From Escherichia coli (GTDB lineage: Bacteria > Pseudomonadota > Gammaproteobacteria > Enterobacterales > Enterobacteriaceae): a stretch of DNA of 64,000 nucleotides. The notes under the pieces were generated by a model. The model ran no database searches, was not told the DNA's origin, and saw nothing but the letters and a program-made list of their open reading frames with translations. This document shows, one piece after another, positions 7,456-48,725 of this stretch; position 1 is the stretch's first letter, and each line of letters begins with the position of its first letter. The stretch lies in the NCBI RefSeq assembly GCF_041886205.1, contig NZ_CP169029.1. One strand, written 5' to 3'. Position numbers and translations under genes: made by a program.

Positions 7456-7543
7456 GGAAGTGTGGCCGAGCGGTTGAAGGCACCGGTCTTGAAAACCGGC
7501 GACCCGAAAGGGTTCCAGAGTTCGAATCTCTGCGCTTCCGCCA
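7456..7543 (+). tRNA. serT: tRNA-Ser (anticodon UGA), 88 nt, with encoded CCA end
   Basis: Sequence GGAAGTGTGGCCGAGCGGTTGAAGGCACCGGTCTTGAAAACCGGCGACCCGAAAGGGTTCCAGAGTTCGAATCTCTGCGCTTCCGCCA read directly; long variable arm typical of a class II tRNA. Confidence 0.95.
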
Positions 7544-33401: not shown

Positions 33402-34412
33402 TTAGATATGGGTAACGATTTCTTTAATCAGCGGCGGACCTTTAAAAATAAAACCAGAATAAATTTGCACCAGTGAGGCACCCGCAGCAATCTTTTCACG
33501 CGCAGCGATAACCGAGTCGATGCCGCCAACCCCGATGATCGGTAAGCGACCGTTTAATTCCAGTGACAAGCGGCGAATAATTTCGGTGCTTTTTAACTGA
33601 AGCGGACGACCACTTAAGCCACCGGTTTGATCGCAATTTTTCATTCCCTGAACCAGAGAACGATCGAGTGTGGTATTGGTTGCAATAACGCCATCAATAT
33701 TATGGCGAACTAAACTATCGGCAACCTGGATCAATTCGTCTTCAGAAAGATCCGGCGCGATCTTCACTGCGATCGGCACATATTTATGGTGCATCGCTTG
33801 CAAATCATTTTGCTTATTTTTAATCGCGGTTAAGAGATCATCCAGCGCTTCACCATATTGCAGCGTGCGTAATCCTGGGGTATTCGGCGATGAAATATTG
33901 ATGGCGATATATCCCGCATAGGCATAGATTTTTTCCATACAAATCAGATAGTCATCTTTTCCCTGCTCCACTGGCGTATCTTTATTTTTGCCGATATTAA
34001 TACCCAGGACGCCGTCATAATGGGCCTTTTTTACGTTCTCTACGAGGTTATCAACGCCAAGATTATTAAAGCCCATACGGTTGATCAAACCTTCGGCATC
34101 TACCAGACGAAAGAGACGCGGCTTGTCATTACCTGGCTGTGGACGTGGCGTGACGGTACCGATCTCGATCGATCCAAATCCCATCGCGCCTAACGCATCA
34201 ATGCACTCCCCGTCTTTATCAAGACCGGCTGCCAGACCAAGCGGATTTTTAAACGTCAGGCCCATGCAGTTAACAGGTTTCGCAGGCACTTTCTGCCGCA
34301 CCAGTGCTTCAAACGGCGTTCCAGTAATGCGGCGTAATTGCTGAAAAGTAAACTCATGAGCGCGCTCTGGATCGAGCTGGAAAAGGGCTTTACGAACGAA
34401 GGGGTAGTACAT
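33402..34412 (-). CDS. pyrD: Dihydroorotate dehydrogenase (quinone), PyrD (336 aa)
   Basis: Track ORF 33402..34439; the known product starts at [28 protein letters not shown] (ATG at 34412). Confidence 0.95.
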
Positions 34413-34498
34413 GAACTCTCCTGGATTCCCGGTGTGCAAACCGGGGGCGTATTATGTGCGAGTTCGGACCAAAAGGGAATTGACCTGCGGCAAAAAAA

Positions 34499-34522: not shown

Positions 34523-35232
34523 TCAGGGCAGATTTTGCTCCTTCTTTGCACTCAACCCGCCGTAATCATTTATCGCCCGCCAGGCGACATGACACGGTGC
34601 TATTGCCTGACACCAGCTTGTCTGACGCTGGCTTTTAGGTGGCACAACTCCCGCATTACTTAACGCTTTACCATTTACGCTCACCTGAATCAGATTAATG
34701 TAGTAAGGCGTTGGGTTAGTGAGTTGCACACCCTGCGAATTCCGTGTCCAGCGTAATTGTTGATAAGCTTCCAGCGGGTCACCCGGCAAACCTTCGGGTC
34801 GCCAGAACAGTTTAAATACCGAGCGCATCGCCACTTTTACGCTCTGATTTTCGACTTTGCCGGATGGCACGCTGGCAATGCTTAACTCAAATAGCGTTTC
34901 GCGATCCACAGGCAAGATGTTGCTTTCCGTTCTCAGTAAGCGCAACGTGCCTGTAGTACCGGGCTTCAGGAGAATAAGTGGCGGAGCGGCCAGTAATGGT
35001 GCTGGCACTGTCGACGCTTCCCCCCGGCCCAACGCGTTGGGCGATTGATTTTACTGTTAATAAGCCAGGATTCCTGACTGGTATTAGTCAGTAAAATAGA
35101 TATCGATTCGCTGTCTGCCGGAAAGATAAATCGCGTTCCGCCGACCACCACTCCTGCCTGCAATTCACCCGCCACCAGCAGCGATAAAACGGCAAAAATC
35201 AAGAGCGCCAATCTGTTCCACGTATTAGTCAT
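34523..35232 (-). pseudogene. ycbF: Fimbrial periplasmic chaperone YcbF, disrupted by a frameshift in a 6-nt homopolymer (C6 on + strand, 35020..35025)
   Basis: The N-terminal part (MTNTWNRLALLIFAVLSLLVAGELQA..., track ORF 34966..35259) and the C-terminal part (track ORF 34523..35032) are in different frames. Adding one G to the minus-strand G6 run gives a continuous 236-aa PapD-like chaperone. Confidence 0.7.
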
Positions 35233-43198: not shown

Positions 43199-44340
43199 GT
43201 CTGAATATGTTCTGGTTTTTACCGACCCACGGTGACGGACATTATCTGGGAACGGAAGAAGGTTCACGCCCGGTTGATCACGGTTATCTGCAACAAATTG
43301 CGCAAGCGGCGGATCGTCTGGGCTATACCGGTGTGCTGATCCCAACGGGGCGATCGTGTGAAGATGCGTGGTTGGTTGCCGCATCGATGATCCCGGTGAC
43401 GCAGCGGCTGAAGTTTCTTGTCGCCCTGCGCCCCAGCGTAACCTCACCTACCGTTGCCGCTCGCCAGGCCGCCACGCTTGACCGTCTCTCGAATGGTCGT
43501 GCGTTGTTTAATCTGGTCACAGGCAGCGATCCACAAGAGCTGGCAGGCGACGGCGTATTCCTTGATCATAGCGAGCGCTACGAAGCCTCGGCGGAATTTA
43601 CCCAGGTCTGGCGACGTTTATTGCAGGGAGAAACCGTCGATTTCAACGGTAAACATATTCATGTGCGCGGAGCAAAACTGCTCTTCCCGGCGATTCAACA
43701 GCCGTATCCGCCACTTTACTTTGGCGGATCGTCAGATGTCGCCCAGGAGTTGGCGGCAGAACAGGTTGATCTCTACCTCACCTGGGGCGAACCTCCGGAA
43801 CTGGTTAAAGAGAAAATCGAACAAGTGCGGGCAAAAGCTGCCGCGCATGGACGCAAAATTCGTTTCGGTATTCGTCTGCATGTGATTGTTCGTGAAACTA
43901 ACGACGAAGCGTGGCTGGCCGCCGAGCGGTTAATCTCGCATCTTGATGATGAAACTATCGCCAAAGCACAGGCCGCATTCGCCCGGACGGATTCCGTAGG
44001 ACAACAGCGGATGGCGGCGTTACATAACGGCAAGCGCGACAATCTGGAGATCAGCCCCAATTTATGGGCGGGCGTTGGCTTAGTGCGCGGCGGTGCCGGG
44101 ACGGCGCTGGTGGGCGATGGTCCTACGATCGCCTCGCGAATCAACGAATACGCTGCACTTGGCATCGACAGTTTTGTGCTTTCGGGCTATCCGCATCTGG
44201 AAGAAGCGTATCGGGTCGGCGAGTTGCTGTTCCCACATCTGGATGTCGCCATTCCGGAAATTCCCCAGCCGCAGCCGCTGAATCCGCAAGGCGAAGCGGT
44301 GGCGAATGATTTTATCCCCCGTAAAGTCGCGCAAAGCTAA
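43195..44340 (+). CDS. ssuD: FMNH2-dependent alkanesulfonate monooxygenase SsuD (381 aa)
   Basis: Track [47 protein letters not shown]... matches SsuD. Confidence 0.95.
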
Positions 44341-44348
44341 GGAACACG

Positions 44349-45143
44349 ATGATGCCAACGCCAGTGAAGAAGTGGTTATTGCGCGTTGCCCCCTGGTTTT
44401 TACCGGTGAGCATCGTAGTGGTGTGGCAACTGGCCTCCTCGGTTGGCTGGCTGTCGACGCGTATTTTGCCTTCACCGGAAGGAGTGGTGACGGCGTTCTG
44501 GACGCTCTCCGCCAGCGGTGAACTGTGGCAGCATCTGGCGATCAGTTCCTGGCGGGCGCTGATTGGCTTTTCAATTGGCGGATCGCTGGGCTTGATTCTG
44601 GGACTGATTAGCGGGCTGTCACGCTGGGGAGAACGGCTGCTGGATACCTCAATTCAGATGTTGCGCAACGTACCGCATCTGGCGCTGATCCCGCTGGTGA
44701 TTTTGTGGTTTGGCATTGATGAATCCGCAAAAATCTTTCTGGTGGCGCTCGGCACGCTATTCCCCATTTATATCAACACCTGGCATGGCATCCGTAATAT
44801 CGATCGCGGGCTGGTGGAGATGGCGCGTAGCTATGGGTTATCCGGCATACCGCTGTTTATCCATGTGATCCTGCCTGGTGCCCTGCCCTCAATTATGGTC
44901 GGCGTGCGTTTTGCGTTGGGCCTGATGTGGCTGACGCTGATTGTTGCCGAAACCATTTCTGCCAATTCAGGCATTGGTTATCTGGCGATGAATGCGCGGG
45001 AGTTTTTGCAAACGGACGTGGTGGTGGTCGCCATTATTCTTTACGCCCTGCTCGGCAAACTTGCTGACGTCAGCGCGCAGCTGTTAGAGCGCCTCTGGTT
45101 GCGCTGGAACCCGGCTTATCATTTGAAGGAGGCCACGGTATGA
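44349..45143 (+). CDS. ssuC: Aliphatic sulfonate ABC transporter permease SsuC (about 263 aa)
   Basis: Track [30 protein letters not shown]...; AAGGAA Shine-Dalgarno 5 nt upstream. Confidence 0.92.
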
Positions 45144-45907
45144 ATACTGCTCGTCTGAACCAGGGCACACCATTGTTGCTCAATGCAGTAAGCAAACATT
45201 ACGCGGAAAATATCGTCCTGAACCAACTGGATTTACATATTCCGGCAGGTCAGTTTGTGGCGGTGGTGGGCCGCAGCGGTGGTGGCAAAAGTACCCTGCT
45301 GCGCCTGCTGGCAGGTCTGGAAACGCCAACCGCAGGCGATGTGTTAGCGGGCACCACACCGCTGGCTGAAATTCAGGAAGACACGCGAATGATGTTTCAG
45401 GATGCGCGTCTGCTACCGTGGAAATCGGTGATTGATAACGTTGGGTTAGGCCTTAAAGGCCAGTGGCGCGATGCAGCGCGTCGGGCGTTGGCTGCGGTAG
45501 GACTGGAGAATCGCGCAGGGGAATGGCCTGCCGCACTTTCAGGCGGGCAGAAACAGCGTGTGGCGCTGGCAAGAGCGTTGATTCATCGACCGGGTTTATT
45601 GTTGCTTGATGAACCGCTCGGGGCACTGGACGCCTTAACGCGACTCGAGATGCAGGATTTGATTGTGTCACTTTGGCAGGAGCACGGCTTTACCGTACTG
45701 TTGGTGACGCATGATGTGAGCGAAGCGGTAGCAATGGCTGACCGGGTGTTGTTAATTGAAGAGGGAAAAATTGGTCTGGATTTGACGGTGGATATCCCCC
45801 GTCCGCGCCGGTTAGGGTCGGTGCGATTAGCGGAGCTGGAAGCGGAAGTGTTGCAACGGGTGATGCAGCGTGGGCACTCTGAACAACCGATTCGGCGTCA
45901 TGGTTAA
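45140..45907 (+). CDS. ssuB: Aliphatic sulfonate ABC transporter ATPase SsuB (255 aa)
   Basis: Track [32 protein letters not shown]... with Walker [10 protein letters not shown] and ABC signature LSGGQKQR. Confidence 0.95.
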
Positions 45908-45909
45908 TA

Positions 45910-46100
45910 TGCCGGATGTGCCGCACAAAACCAGCAGTTTCAACGGATTGTAGGCCTGATAAGACGCGTCAAGCGTCGCATCAGGCATTTGGGCACGGCT
46001 GCCGGATGCGGCGTGAACGCCTTATCCAGCCTACAAAACCAGCATTTTCAACGGACTTGTAGGCCTGATAAGACGCGTCAAGCGTCGCATCCGGCATTTT
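45910..46100. repeat. REP/BIME cluster: two ~66-nt direct repeats (45927..45992 and 46035..46100) with an inverted REP-like copy between them
   Basis: Repeated motif TGTAGGCCTGATAAGACGCGTCAAGCGTCGCATC(A/C)GGCA and inverted GCCGGATGCGGCGTGAACGCCTTATCCAGCCTACA, the canonical E. coli REP palindrome family, between convergent ssuB and pepN. Confidence 0.9.
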
Positions 46101-46112
46101 GGCTCAAAAGTA

Positions 46113-48725
46113 TCAAGCCAGTGCTTTAGTTATCTTCTCGTACAGATCGCCAGAGAGATTTTCCAGCCCTTTCAACTGCTCCAGCGCCGCGCGCATTTTC
46201 TCCTGACGTTTGGCATCGTAACGTTTCAGGCGAATCAGCGGTTCAATCAGACGTGAAGCCACCTGCGGGTTACGGCTGTTGAGGTCGGTAAGCATTTCCA
46301 CCAGGAACTGGTAACCACTGCCATCGTCGGCATGGAACGCTGCCGGGTTGCTGCCCGCAAACGCGCCAATCAACGAACGAATACGGTTCGGGTTGCTCAT
46401 GGTAAATGAGCGATGCTGCAACAGACCACGTACCGTCTCCAGCACATTCGCCGCCGGGCTGGTGGCTTGCAGGATAAACCATTTATCCATCACCAGACCA
46501 TCCTGATGCCACTTGTCGTCGTACTCCTGCATCAGCGCGTCACGGCATGGCAGCTGTGCGGCAACCGCCGCAGAAAGCGCCGCCAGCGCATCGGTCATAT
46601 TGTTCGCTTCATGGAACTGCTTGCTCACCAGCACATCAGCCAGATGCGTTTCACCAAAAGCAAGGAAGCGCAGACAGGCATTACGCAGAGTGCGTTTTGC
46701 AATATCTTCATGCTCAACGCGGTACTCGCTCTGGTAATTCGCGTTGTAAATAGCCAGCAGCTCATCCGCCAGTTCAGTCGCCAGAGTACGAGTGAGTGCT
46801 TCGCGTACTTCGGCAATAGCAATCGGGTCGATGATATCGAACAGTTCAGCCATTTCATTGACGGATGGCAGAGTCAGAATTTCTGCCGCCAGTGCCGGGT
46901 CAATCTTCTCATCGAGCAGCACCGCGCGGAAGGCGTCGGCCACATGCACCGGCAGAGACAGCGGCTGCCCTTGCTGATGACGGGCGACGTTCAGCTTGAT
47001 GTAGGTTGCCAGCAAACTTTGCGCCGCATCCCAACGGGAGAAATCATTACGCGCATGACGCATCAGGAAGGTCAGTTGCTGATCGCTCCACTTATATTCC
47101 AGTTTCACTGGCGCAGAGAATTCGCACAGCAGCGCAGGCACCGGCTGGAAGTAGACATTATCAAAGACAAAGGTCTGTTCCGCCTGAGTGACGTTCAGCA
47201 CGGAATTCACCGGATGACCGCCTTTCTGCAACGGGATCACTTTGCCTTCGTTATCATACAGTTCGATGGCAAACGGAATATGCAGCGGCTGTTTTTCTGC
47301 CTGATCCGGCGTGGCTGGCGTGCGCTGGCTGATGGTCAGGGTGTACTGCTCGGTTTCCGGATTGTAGTCGTCTTTGACGGTCACAATCGGTGTACCGGAC
47401 TGGCTGTACCAACGGCGGAAATGGGAGAGATCGACATTCGACGCATCTTCCATCGCCTGCACAAAGTCGTCACAGGTCGCTGCACTACCATCATGACGCT
47501 CGAAATAAAGCTGCATCCCTTTCTGGAAGTTTTCTTCGCCCAATAGGGTATGGATCATGCGAATCACTTCCGCGCCCTTCTCGTAAACGGTCAGGGTGTA
47601 GAAGTTGTTCATCTCAATGACCATATCCGGGCGGATCGGGTGCGCCATCGGGCTGGCGTCTTCTGCAAACTGCAATCCGCGCATGGTGCGCACATTATTG
47701 ATGCGGTTAACTGCGCGGGAACCAAGGTCAGAGCTGAACTCCTGATCGCGGAAGACGGTTAAACCTTCTTTCAGGCTGAGCTGGAACCAGTCGCGGCAGG
47801 TCACTCGGTTACCGGTCCAGTTATGGAAATATTCATGGCCGATAACGCGTTCAATATCGAGGTAATCTTTATCGGTGGCGGTGTCGGTGCGGGCCAGCAC
47901 ATATTTGGAGTTAAAGATATTCAGACCTTTATTCTCCATTGCGCCCATATTAAAGAAGTCCACCGCGACGATCATATAGATGTCGAGGTCATACTCCAGG
48001 CCGAAGCGTTCTTCATCCCATTTCATGGAGTTTTTCAGCGAGGTCATCGCCCACGGCGCGCGGTCGAGGTTGCCGCGATCGACGTACAACTCCAGCGCCA
48101 CTTCGCGACCAGAACGCGTGGTGAAGGTGTCGCGCAGCACGTCGAAGTCGCCTGCAACCAGCGCAAACAGGTAGCACGGTTTAGGGAACGGATCCTGCCA
48201 CTGTACCCAATGGCGTCCGTTTTCCAGTTCGCCTTGCGCAACGCGGTTACCGTTGGAAAGCAGGAAGGGATATTTGGTTTTATCGGCTATAATTTTGGTG
48301 GTAAAACGCGCCAGCACGTCCGGGCGGTCGAGATAATACGTAATGTGGCGGAAACCTTCGGCTTCACACTGGGTGCAAAGCGCATCGCCTGACTGATAAA
48401 GCCCTTCCAGCGCAGTATTCGCCGCCGGGCTAATTTCATTAACGATCTTAAGCGTAAAACGCTCCGGCAAATTACTGATGACCAGTGCGCCCTCTTCTTC
48501 TTTCCAGGCGGTCCACGGCTCATCATTAATATGAACAGAAACCAGTTTAAGATCTTCGCCATCAAGACGAAGCGGAGTATCTGATGCACCATGACGGGCA
48601 GCCTGGCTGACCGCGGTAACGACCGTCTTTTGCGCGTCCAGGTCAAAGGTCAAGTCAATATCAGTAATCTGGTAATCCGGCGCACGATAATCGTGACGGT
48701 ATTTGGCTTGTGGCTGTTGAGTCAT
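46113..48725 (-). CDS. pepN: Aminopeptidase N (870 aa)
   Basis: Track ORF MTQQPQAKYRHDYRAPDYQITDIDLTFDLDAQKT... with the HEYFHNWTGNRVT zinc-binding motif. Confidence 0.96.
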   Translation of the reverse strand: MTQQPQAKYRHDYRAPDYQITDIDLTFDLDAQKTVVTAVSQAARHGASDTPLRLDGEDLKLVSVHINDEPWTAWKEEEGALVISNLPERFTLKIVNEISPAANTALEGLYQSGDALCTQCEAEGFRHITYYLDRPDVLARFTTKIIADKTKYPFLLSNGNRVAQGELENGRHWVQWQDPFPKPCYLFALVAGDFDVLRDTFTTRSGREVALELYVDRGNLDRAPWAMTSLKNSMKWDEERFGLEYDLDIYMIVAVDFFNMGAMENKGLNIFNSKYVLARTDTATDKDYLDIERVIGHEYFHNWTGNRVTCRDWFQLSLKEGLTVFRDQEFSSDLGSRAVNRINNVRTMRGLQFAEDASPMAHPIRPDMVIEMNNFYTLTVYEKGAEVIRMIHTLLGEENFQKGMQLYFERHDGSAATCDDFVQAMEDASNVDLSHFRRWYSQSGTPIVTVKDDYNPETEQYTLTISQRTPATPDQAEKQPLHIPFAIELYDNEGKVIPLQKGGHPVNSVLNVTQAEQTFVFDNVYFQPVPALLCEFSAPVKLEYKWSDQQLTFLMRHARNDFSRWDAAQSLLATYIKLNVARHQQGQPLSLPVHVADAFRAVLLDEKIDPALAAEILTLPSVNEMAELFDIIDPIAIAEVREALTRTLATELADELLAIYNANYQSEYRVEHEDIAKRTLRNACLRFLAFGETHLADVLVSKQFHEANNMTDALAALSAAVAAQLPCRDALMQEYDDKWHQDGLVMDKWFILQATSPAANVLETVRGLLQHRSFTMSNPNRIRSLIGAFAGSNPAAFHADDGSGYQFLVEMLTDLNSRNPQVASRLIEPLIRLKRYDAKRQEKMRAALEQLKGLENLSGDLYEKITKALA

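What the first reader, a model, noticed from the sequence alone, without database searches (positions are those of the whole stretch)
45910..46100. REP/BIME cluster with two ~66-nt direct repeats between ssuB and pepN
Two nearly identical copies of AAAACCAGCA(G/T)TTTCAACGGA(T/CT)TGTAGGCCTGATAAGACGCGTCAAGCGTCGCATC(A/C)GGCATTT flank an oppositely oriented REP-like palindrome (GCCGGATGCGGCGTGAACGCCTTATCCAGCCTAC). Such elements give mRNA 3'-end protection, termination, gyrase/IHF binding and recombination hotspots. It is not a CRISPR array: there are only two or three units, no unique spacers of regular length and no cas genes.
Basis: partly seen in the sequence, partly recalled or inferred. Interest (0 to 1): 0.2.

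Follow-up and report, generated by a model that had tools for sequence, protein, structure and literature searches.

The report
Ordinary E. coli BIME-2 repeat cluster
The spacer between the convergent genes ssuB and pepN holds an ordinary E. coli REP/BIME-2 repeat cluster (three hairpin-forming palindromes plus a stump of a fourth), a long-known kind of element, and about 58% of E. coli genomes carry a plain terminator hairpin at this spot instead.

Summary
They flank an inverted palindrome at 46001-46034, in the 205-bp spacer between ssuB (+) and pepN (-).

The element is a BIME-2 array: a truncated Y stump, linker, Z2, short linker, inverted Y, linker, Z2, with a 108/109-nt period. Each complete REP has the 5' GTAG and the stem bubble. 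The Z2-S-Y core passes Rfam's naRNA4 threshold (82.2 bits against 59.5) and matches K-12 REP325 units.

Two strains carry IS1397, an insertion sequence specific for REP loops, in the loop of the second Z2. These are independent insertions.

The locus has two alleles: the BIME in 2249 of 5426 complete E. coli genomes, and a 42-bp intrinsic-terminator hairpin with a recoded ssuB tail in 3173, K-12 included. All other Escherichia species sampled carry the BIME allele with 1-3 units, so it is the older one.

The likely role is inferred, not shown: a two-way 3'-end hairpin module acting as partial terminator and exonuclease block. This is a known kind of element and interest is low.

The parts
45140..45907 (+). 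ssuB (context): aliphatic sulfonate ABC transporter ATPase, stop codon TAA at 45905-45907. The last ~40 nt belong to the allele-specific patch.
   Evidence: ORF list. Annotation of the 100%-identical PT62 locus. 18 of the last 40 nt differ from K-12, against about 2% divergence further upstream.
45910..45927 (-). Y' stump: tail-side (non-GTAG) arm of a Y REP (TGCCGGATGTGCCGCACA) whose other half, about 18 nt, has been deleted. It forms no hairpin of its own.
   Evidence: Matches the REP arm pattern with 1 mismatch. It repeats 46000-46013 at spacing 90 instead of 108 (D7). E. albertii has the full-length Y at this position. The fold is not better than shuffles, z +0.3.
45928..45949 (.). Head-to-head linker, copy 1 (AAACCAGCAGTTTCAACGGATT).
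   Evidence: The linker is locus-specific in E. coli: 2249 genomes hold it, with a median of 2 places each.
45950..45987 (+). Z2 REP, copy 1 (GTAG + imperfect palindrome).
   Evidence: 0 mismatches to the Z2 string. Hairpin of -21.8 kcal/mol with an internal 2x2 bubble, z -5.6. Aligns to the Z2 units of K-12 REP325.
45988..45999 (.). Short tail-to-tail linker (S type), TTTGGGCACGGC.
   Evidence: Aligns with the linker inside REP325/naRNA units. Covered by the Rfam naRNA4 match.
46000..46034 (-). Y REP in inverse orientation (GTAG on the - strand).
   Evidence: 1 mismatch to a Y consensus recalled from memory, on the - strand. Hairpin of -18.7 kcal/mol with bubble. Aligns to the Y units of REP325.
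46035..46058 (.). Head-to-head linker, copy 2 (AAAACCAGCATTTTCAACGGACTT). It forms the loop of the possible long Y:Z2 hairpin.
46059..46096 (+). Z2 REP, copy 2. Its loop is the IS1397 insertion site in other strains. Its 3' arm is deleted in Nissle-type strains.
   Evidence: 1 mismatch. Hairpin of -17.1 kcal/mol. IS1397 junctions lie in its loop in L004 and L005. 12-nt deletion in L006 and L009.
46097..46112 (.). 16-nt tail (TTTTGGCTCAAAAGTA) between Z2-2 and the pepN stop codon.
46113..48725 (-). pepN (context): aminopeptidase N, stop codon at 46113-46115.
45953..46031 (-). Z2-S-Y core that matches the Rfam family naRNA4 (RF02564).
   Evidence: 82.2 bits against a gathering score of 59.5, full model 1-77.
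45925..45994 (+). Direct repeat copy 1 (linker + Z2).
46033..46103 (+). Direct repeat copy 2 (linker + Z2), 67 of 71 aligned positions identical to copy 1.

Best explanation
The spacer is a BIME-2 type bacterial interspersed mosaic element, that is, alternately oriented Z2 and Y REP palindromes with a short tail-to-tail linker and a locus-specific head-to-head linker. It is present here as about 1.9 tandem units.

Shown: its identity and anatomy, that it is old at this site in the genus Escherichia, and that it varies by unit gain and loss, small deletions and IS1397 insertion.

Inferred from what is published for such elements: it sits in the 3' untranslated ends of both converging transcripts, ssuEADCB and pepN. 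Its hairpins would act in both directions as a partial, largely Rho-assisted transcription stop and as a block to 3'-to-5' exonucleases. This is the job done by a plain intrinsic terminator hairpin in the 58% of E. coli genomes that lack the BIME. The tandem structure most likely arose by local duplication of a Y-linker-Z2 unit, through replication slippage or unequal exchange, or through REP-associated transposase (RayT/TnpA-REP) cleavage and strand transfer.
For: Identity:
- Z2, Y and Z2 strings are in alternating orientation.
- Each complete REP has a 5' GTAG and a stem bubble.
- The Rfam naRNA4 match is above the gathering score.
- The core is 81-83% identical over two-REP stretches of K-12 REP325 units, and about 90% over the Z2-S-Y core.
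- REP-like matches occur at a median of 32-34 places per E. coli genome.
- IS1397, shown experimentally to insert specifically into REPs (PMC1525189), sits in the loop of Z2-2 in two strains. Orientations are opposite and the target duplications are 4 and 3 bp, so these are two independent events.
- The BIME-2 definition is taken from PMC3333891.

Age and dynamics:
- The BIME allele, with the same ssuB tail, is present in E. whittamii, three other Escherichia lineages and E. albertii, with 1, 2 or 3 units.
- The linker is found only at this locus, which points to local amplification.

Function (inferred):
- No intrinsic-terminator match lies in the window spacer, whereas the alternative allele is a 13-bp stem followed by TTATTTAT.
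- The two alleles are close to mutually exclusive: 2249 + 3173 = 5422 of 5426 genomes.
- The spacer folds with z about -7 on both strands.
- 39 of 40 ssuB-pepN spacers across Enterobacterales fold with z below -2, whatever repeat or terminator occupies them.
- The preprint 10.64898/2026.03.23.713779 reports REP325, the same Z2/Y type, as a partly Rho-dependent terminator and an mRNA stabiliser. It also reports that REPs between convergent genes go with higher expression of both genes.
Against: - There are no transcript, 3'-end or half-life data for this locus, so the function is entirely by analogy.
- The same preprint reports large context dependence and no general half-life effect of terminal REPs.
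- The element tolerates damage. The left Y is a stump. Nissle-type strains lack the 3' arm of Z2-2. One abundant lineage, represented by strain 2012EL-2448, has two non-compensating changes in the Z2-1 stem. E. albertii's copy is degraded. IS1397 interrupts it in some strains. Selection on any one hairpin therefore looks weak.
- No clear compensatory substitutions were seen among the 10 aligned Escherichia sequences.
- rayT was not found in the window and was detected in only 3574 of 5426 genomes, so an ongoing role of the transposase here is untested.
Confidence: 0.8

Rival explanations
1. Neutral or selfish relic. The BIME is leftover repeat DNA that landed in a permissive spacer between convergent genes, was duplicated locally, and has no role. 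Hairpin-rich spacers simply tolerate such insertions.
For: The element shows decay and interruption in many lineages: the Y' stump, the 12-nt deletion in Nissle-type strains, the degraded E. albertii copy and the IS1397 insertions. It is absent from 58% of E. coli genomes without obvious cost. Other genera carry unrelated repeats in the same slot.
Against: In every allele and genus sampled the slot holds a strong hairpin; 39 of 40 spacers have z below -2. When the BIME is absent, a canonical terminator is present. This suggests the slot needs a hairpin and the BIME supplies it. REPs of this type have measured effects on termination and stability at yjdM-yjdN (10.64898/2026.03.23.713779).
Confidence: 0.3
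2. DNA-level role. As a BIME-2 it is a preferred DNA gyrase binding and cleavage site, relieving the positive supercoils that build up between the converging ssu and pepN transcription units.
For: Gyrase cleavage in vivo is cited specifically for BIME-2 repeats (Espeli and Boccard 1997, cited in PMC4550694 and PMC1525189). The element lies exactly between convergent genes.
Against: This cannot be tested from sequence. The K-12 allele does without it at the same site. The role is compatible with, not exclusive of, an RNA-level role.
Confidence: 0.25
3. Source of a nucleoid-associated RNA. The Z2-S-Y core would be transcribed as an naRNA4-like RNA that binds HU and bridges DNA cruciforms to condense the chromosome.
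For: The Rfam naRNA4 match is above the gathering score. The model is that of Qian et al. 2015 (PMC4550694).
Against: The match only shows that the core belongs to the same repeat family, since REP325 is itself a BIME-2 array. The 2026 preprint from the same groups finds no compaction effect of REP325 or naRNAs and no HU-dependent REP-REP contacts.
Confidence: 0.05
4. Translation-coupled down-regulation. A REP hairpin very close to a stop codon stalls the terminating ribosome and lowers the yield of the upstream protein (Liang, Rudd and Deutscher 2015; recalled from my own knowledge, the paper is not held in the library).
For: Z2-2 ends 16 nt from the pepN stop codon, and the Y' stump starts 2 nt after the ssuB stop codon. 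In E. albertii a full Y sits at that position.
Against: As I recall it, the published effect needs a REP within about 15 nt. Here the first complete REP is 42 nt from the ssuB stop. The stump does not fold. The pepN distance is just outside the limit.
Confidence: 0.08

Closest known systems
BIME-2 (Gilson/Bachellier/Hofnung classification; summarised in Ton-Hoang et al. 2012, PMC3333891)
   Same: Z2 and Y REPs alternate in orientation. A short S-type linker lies between the tails and a second linker between the heads. The units are repeated in tandem. The sequence is well conserved between units of one locus, and the unit number varies between strains.
   Different: Nothing essential differs. 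The array is short (about 1.9 units) and the outermost Y is truncated.
REP325 / naRNA4 of E. coli K-12 (yjdM-yjdN spacer; Rfam RF02564)
   Same: The Z2-S-Y core is the same, about 90% identical, with a full-length match to the covariance model above threshold.
   Different: REP325 has 6 units of 100 nt, lies between tandem genes and has a different 17-nt head-to-head linker. This array has about 2 units of 108 nt and lies between convergent genes.
REPIN (REP doublet forming a long hairpin; Bertels and Rainey 2011, PMC3116915)
   Same: Y, linker and Z2-2 can fold as one long hairpin of -55 to -58 kcal/mol on either strand. E. albertii carries exactly one such doublet.
   Different: REPINs were defined in Pseudomonas as mobile units with RAYT-linked population dynamics. 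Mobility of this doublet is not shown, and its linker occurs at no other locus.
Bidirectional intrinsic terminator between convergent genes
   Same: It has the same position and presumably the same task. The K-12 allele of this very spacer is a terminator hairpin.
   Different: The REP hairpins have no U-rich tail. There is no terminator-scan match in the window, and only TTTT follows Z2-2.

Membership tests
REP (E. coli palindromic unit) | Imperfect palindrome of 30-40 nt | tested here: met
   Z2 is 38 nt (twice) and Y is 35 nt. The hairpins are -21.8, -18.7 and -17.1 kcal/mol.
REP (E. coli palindromic unit) | Conserved GTAG tetranucleotide 5' of the stem foot | tested here: met
   GTAG at 45950 and 46059 (+), and at 46034-46031 (-). 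Definition from PMC3333891.
REP (E. coli palindromic unit) | Two-base mismatch (bubble) in the stem, needed for TnpA-REP binding | tested here: met
   All three predicted hairpins show a symmetric 2x2 internal loop.
REP (E. coli palindromic unit) | Extragenic, high copy number in the genome | tested here: met
   It lies wholly between two stop codons.
REP (E. coli palindromic unit) | Recognised as a target by REP-specific mobile elements | tested here: met
   IS1397 is inserted in the loop of Z2-2 in GN02270 and GPEC874. The specificity of IS1397 is from PMC1525189.
BIME-2 | Composed of Z2 and Y REPs in inverse orientation | tested here: met
   The order is Y', Z2(+), Y(-), Z2(+).
BIME-2 | Short (S) linker between REP and iREP, with no long L linker or IHF site | tested here: met
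   The 12-nt linker aligns with that of REP325. No WATCAANNNNTTR match lies in 45900-46120.
BIME-2 | Tandem copies, with number variable between strains | tested here: met
   About 1.9 units here, 3 in SCPM-O-B-8794 (L023), 1 in E. albertii (L011) and an extra partial unit in GPEC874.
BIME-2 | Binding and cleavage by DNA gyrase | not testable with these tools
   This needs in vivo quinolone cleavage mapping.
naRNA4 (Rfam RF02564) | Covariance-model score at or above the gathering threshold | tested here: met
   82.2 bits against 59.5, on the - strand at 45953-46031.
naRNA4 (Rfam RF02564) | Expressed as a discrete HU-bound RNA that condenses DNA | not testable with these tools
   No expression data are available. 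The function itself is disputed (10.64898/2026.03.23.713779).
REPIN / RAYT-mobilised doublet | Cognate REP-associated tyrosine transposase in the genome, and evidence of spread of the doublet | tested here: inconclusive
   rayT was not found in the 64-kb window. It was found in 3574 of 5426 E. coli genomes. The doublet with its linker occurs at this locus only.
Intrinsic (Rho-independent) terminator | GC-rich stem followed directly by a run of T | tested here: not met
   0 sites in 45700-46300. The K-12 allele does meet this feature.
CRISPR array | Several identical repeats separated by unique spacers of regular length | tested here: not met
   There are only two direct copies. The sequence between them is an inverted REP plus linkers that are themselves repeated. 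TRF finds no array.

The most novel reading that the evidence does not exclude
The ssuB-pepN junction is a natural, species-wide allele swap. An old BIME-2 array (about 41% of genomes, and all other Escherichia species sampled) stands against a sharply bounded patch of roughly 80 nt (about 58%, including K-12). The patch replaces the array with a perfect intrinsic terminator and recodes the last eight or so residues of SsuB. It is more diverged from the BIME allele than E. albertii's copy is. It was therefore either imported from outside the genus, or is a single REP hairpin that evolved into a terminator: CCGGATG..CATCCGG would have become CCGAATGG..CCATTCGG, which would be a compensated change. 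If so, the locus is a ready-made isogenic test of what a BIME does compared with a terminator.
Probability: 0.25. Interest if true: 0.35.

Novelty: already known. Interest (0 to 1): 0.12.

Why it matters
On its own it matters little. REP/BIME elements have been known since the 1980s and E. coli carries hundreds of them. The useful by-product is practical. This locus exists in nature in two clean versions, BIME-2 or intrinsic terminator, between the same two genes and at comparable frequencies. It also comes with 1-, 2- and 3-unit and IS1397-interrupted variants. That makes it a convenient natural test bed for the still-debated question of what REPs do to neighbouring transcripts. It is also a reminder that K-12-based REP catalogues miss strain-specific elements.

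Tried and rejected
- Tandem Repeats Finder found nothing in the window, so it added nothing to the repeat finder result.
- A synthetic 3-unit query, meant to count 3-unit genomes, did not discriminate. BLAST joined overlapping pieces from 2-unit genomes into 100% coverage. None of the 30 best hits had a 420-nt span, so 3-unit forms within E. coli proper remain uncounted.
- CRISPR was rejected (see membership tests).
- IHF/BIME-1 was rejected: no IHF core site and no long linker.
- The intrinsic terminator reading was rejected for this allele.
- rayT was not found in the window.
- A possible REP at 34858 turned out to be ordinary sequence with no palindrome.
- The short ORFs inside the spacer (45916-46062 +, 45989-46129 +, 45827-45988 -) lie across the repeat and are not annotated in PT62. 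I treated them as spurious.
- Gilson et al. 1991 (PMC333889), which defines the linker motifs, is not held in the library. I therefore did not name the head-to-head linker as s, l or r.
- A literature search for ssuB + pepN + BIME returned nothing.
- I looked for compensatory stem changes among 10 Escherichia sequences and saw none that were convincing. I did not run a formal pair count because variation is too low.
- The first run of the fold-versus-shuffle script over all spacers failed on a file name, and the second timed out. The rerun with 40 mononucleotide shuffles is.

Full report

Yes. The window between the ssuB stop codon (TAA, 45905-45907) and the pepN stop codon (TCA on the + strand, 46113-46115) is 205 bp. 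The central palindrome string is at 46001-46034.

Taken a little wider, the copies 45925-45994 and 46033-46103 share 67 of 71 aligned positions, at a spacing of 108/109 nt. Shuffles of the window never produce the Z2 string even with 3 mismatches allowed, and produce the linker string 0.01 times on average.

The gene names are right. The 601 bases around the site are 100% identical to E. coli PT62, where RefSeq annotates ssuB and pepN on either side.

**2. Anatomy**

Reading the + strand, the spacer contains:

| Coordinates | Feature |
|---|---|
| 45910-45927 | stump of a Y REP |
| 45928-45949 | 22-nt head-to-head linker |
| 45950-45987 | Z2 REP, + orientation, starts with GTAG |
| 45988-45999 | 12-nt short tail-to-tail linker |
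| 46000-46034 | Y REP, inverse orientation, GTAG on the - strand |
| 46035-46058 | second copy of the head-to-head linker, 24 nt |
| 46059-46096 | second Z2 REP, + orientation |
| 46097-46112 | 16-nt tail |

These assignments rest.

Each complete REP folds as a hairpin of -17 to -22 kcal/mol with the symmetric two-base bubble typical of REPs. Y, the linker and Z2-2 can instead fold into one long hairpin of -55 to -58 kcal/mol. The whole spacer folds with z about -7 on either strand.

The stump is a Y with an 18-nt internal deletion. Three results support this. It repeats the start of the full Y at spacing 90 instead of 108. It matches the REP arm pattern with one mismatch. E. albertii has a full-length Y at that position.

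**3. What it is**

Ton-Hoang et al. (PMC3333891) define E. coli REPs as 30-40-nt imperfect palindromes with a conserved 5' GTAG, of types y, z1 and z2. They define BIME-2 as z2 + y in inverse orientation, separated by a short linker S, with flanking s, l or r sequences. BIME-2 occurs in tandem copies that are well conserved within a locus and variable in number between strains. Every one of these sequence-level features is met here.

Independent support comes from three sources:
- The Z2-S-Y core scores 82.2 bits against Rfam naRNA4 (gathering score 59.5) over the full model. That family was built from REP325 of K-12, a six-unit Z2/Y array (PMC4550694).
- Direct comparison with K-12 REP325 gives 81-83% identity over two REPs and about 90% over the core. 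The period (100 nt) and the head-to-head linker differ.
- In two E. coli strains, GN02270 and GPEC874, an IS1397 element sits in the loop of Z2-2. The orientations are opposite and the target duplications are 4 bp (GTCA) and 3 bp (TCA), so these are two separate events. IS1397 is experimentally known to insert specifically into REPs (PMC1525189).

No IHF core site is present. That fits BIME-2 and not BIME-1.

**4. The locus in other strains and species**

K-12 has no REP here. Its spacer is 42 bp and consists of a 13-bp GC-rich stem followed by TTATTTAT, which the terminator scan picks up. The window spacer has no terminator-like site.

The two forms differ in a sharply bounded patch. 18 of the last 40 nt of ssuB differ, against about 2% divergence upstream. 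The SsuB tail therefore reads ...[11 protein letters not shown] in the window and ...GESETRLRKQG in K-12. The difference ends at the pepN stop codon.

Counts over 5426 complete E. coli genomes:
- The locus-specific linker is found in 2249 genomes, with a median of two places each.
- The full two-unit form is found in 2060.
- The K-12 patch is found in 3173.
- 2249 + 3173 = 5422, so the alleles are practically exclusive.

A scan of one genome per species with a degenerate pepN 3'-end pattern returned 57 loci. ssuB lies next to pepN in 38 of them. Every other Escherichia lineage recovered has the BIME allele with the window-type ssuB tail:

| Lineage | Locus | Spacer |
|---|---|---|
| E. whittamii | L040 | 198 bp |
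| Escherichia sp. E1V33 | L057 | 196 bp |
| strain E69 | L038 | 193 bp |
| SCPM-O-B-8794 | L023 | 307 bp, three units |
| E. albertii | L011 | 115 bp, one degraded Y-linker-Z2 unit |

The BIME allele is therefore the older one in the genus, and the K-12 terminator allele is derived or imported. Its source was not found.

Within E. coli there are further variants. Nissle-type strains have a 12-nt deletion that removes the 3' arm of Z2-2. GPEC874 has an extra partial unit.

In Enterobacter, Leclercia, Lelliottia and others the same slot carries different repeats or plain terminators. One kind is a GGGAGAGGG-type palindrome that I recall as boxC-like. Another is a GTAG-headed REP of their own, GTAGGCCCGGTAAGCG.... 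39 of 40 spacers fold with z below -2 against shuffles.

**5. How it most likely works**

Shown: it is a BIME-2, it is old at this site, its linker occurs nowhere else in the genome so the units were duplicated locally, and it is a live target for IS1397.

Inferred: it serves as the 3'-end hairpin module for both converging transcripts.

The argument has three parts:
- The slot holds a strong hairpin in every genus and allele examined.
- Where the BIME is missing, a canonical terminator stands in its place.
- A Z2/Y array of the same type, REP325, has been reported to act both as a partly Rho-dependent terminator and as a stabiliser of the upstream mRNA. The same study reports that REPs between convergent genes go with higher expression of both genes and often coincide with bidirectional terminators (10.64898/2026.03.23.713779).

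None of this has been measured at ssuB-pepN. The same study also stresses context dependence.

Rivals are listed in their own section, and none can be excluded from sequence alone:
- A neutral relic. The many damaged variants speak for weak constraint.
- A gyrase site between convergent genes.
- An HU-binding RNA. This is now disputed by the authors' own follow-up.
- Stop-codon-proximal translational damping. The distances of 42 and 16 nt are just outside the range I recall for that effect.

On how the array formed: RayT (TnpA-REP) cleaves and recombines BIMEs in vitro and is proposed to amplify them (PMC3333891). rayT was not found in the window and was detected in 3574 of 5426 genomes. Slippage or unequal exchange between units is an equally simple route.

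**6. Comparison, novelty and verdict**

This is a member of a thoroughly described family. All testable defining features of REP and BIME-2 are met. Gyrase binding, RNA expression and RayT action could not be tested.

It differs from the textbook example REP325 only in unit number, linker and gene context. I found no paper that mentions this particular locus, and PGAP does not annotate it. The kind of element is nonetheless already known, and the instance sits in thousands of public genomes.

Interest is low. The one mildly useful result is the clean two-allele state of the locus, which could serve as a natural experiment on REP function.

Noticed in passing
window 45868-46112, compared with L002:1676-1750 and L003 (K-12): The K-12 allele differs from the window in a sharply bounded patch. 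18 of the last 40 nt of ssuB differ, so the SsuB tail is GESETRLRKQG instead of [11 protein letters not shown], and the whole spacer differs. Flanking DNA is about 98% identical. The patch is more diverged than the E. albertii copy, and its donor is unknown. Its hairpin arms (CCGAATGGCGGC/GCCGCCATTCGG) faintly resemble the outer REP arms of the BIME allele.
   Followed up: partly
L004:3231-4680 (GN02270) and L005:3275-4725 (GPEC874): IS1397 is inserted in the loop of the second Z2 REP of this BIME in two strains. The orientations are opposite and the target duplications are GTCA and TCA, which marks two independent hits on the same 5-nt loop.
   Followed up: yes
L005:3120-3200 (GPEC874): An extra degenerate Y plus S linker lies between Z2-1 and the normal Y, so the array architecture varies beyond whole-unit copy number.
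   Followed up: no
L006:550-764 (Nissle 1917) and L009:549-762: A 12-nt deletion (CGTCGCATCCGG) removes the 3' arm of the second Z2, so these B2-type strains keep only two intact REPs.
   Followed up: partly
window 45937 and 46045 (linker position CAGCA[N]TTTC), alignment A2: The same linker position is G, T or A in different strains and in both units, while its neighbours are nearly invariant. This is a small hypervariable spot with no explanation so far.
   Followed up: no
L019, L029, L033, L039, L043, L059, L062 and other Enterobacter/Leclercia/Lelliottia loci (ssuB-pepN spacers): The same spacer in other genera is occupied by unrelated repeat families or by plain terminators. One is a CCCTCTCCC...GGGAGAGGG palindrome that I recall as boxC-like. 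Another is a genus-specific GTAG-headed REP, GTAGGCCCGGTAAGCG...CACCGGGC. The slot is recurrently colonised by repeats.
   Followed up: partly
E. coli genome collection: K-12 rayT (REP-associated tyrosine transposase) is detectable by megablast in only 3574 of 5426 complete genomes. Identities fall into two groups, at least 95% and 90-95%. REP matches, in contrast, are found in 5425 of 5426 genomes.
   Followed up: no
window 34407-34480 (-) and 7456-7540 (+): The only other Rfam matches above threshold in the window are a PyrD leader (97.9 bits) and one tRNA. No other Y/Z2-type REP was found in the 64 kb.
   Followed up: no
window 44340-44349, compared with K-12: The ungapped comparison with K-12 loses register about 1553 nt upstream of the ssuB stop codon, near the ssuD-ssuC junction. 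This indicates a small indel there.
   Followed up: no
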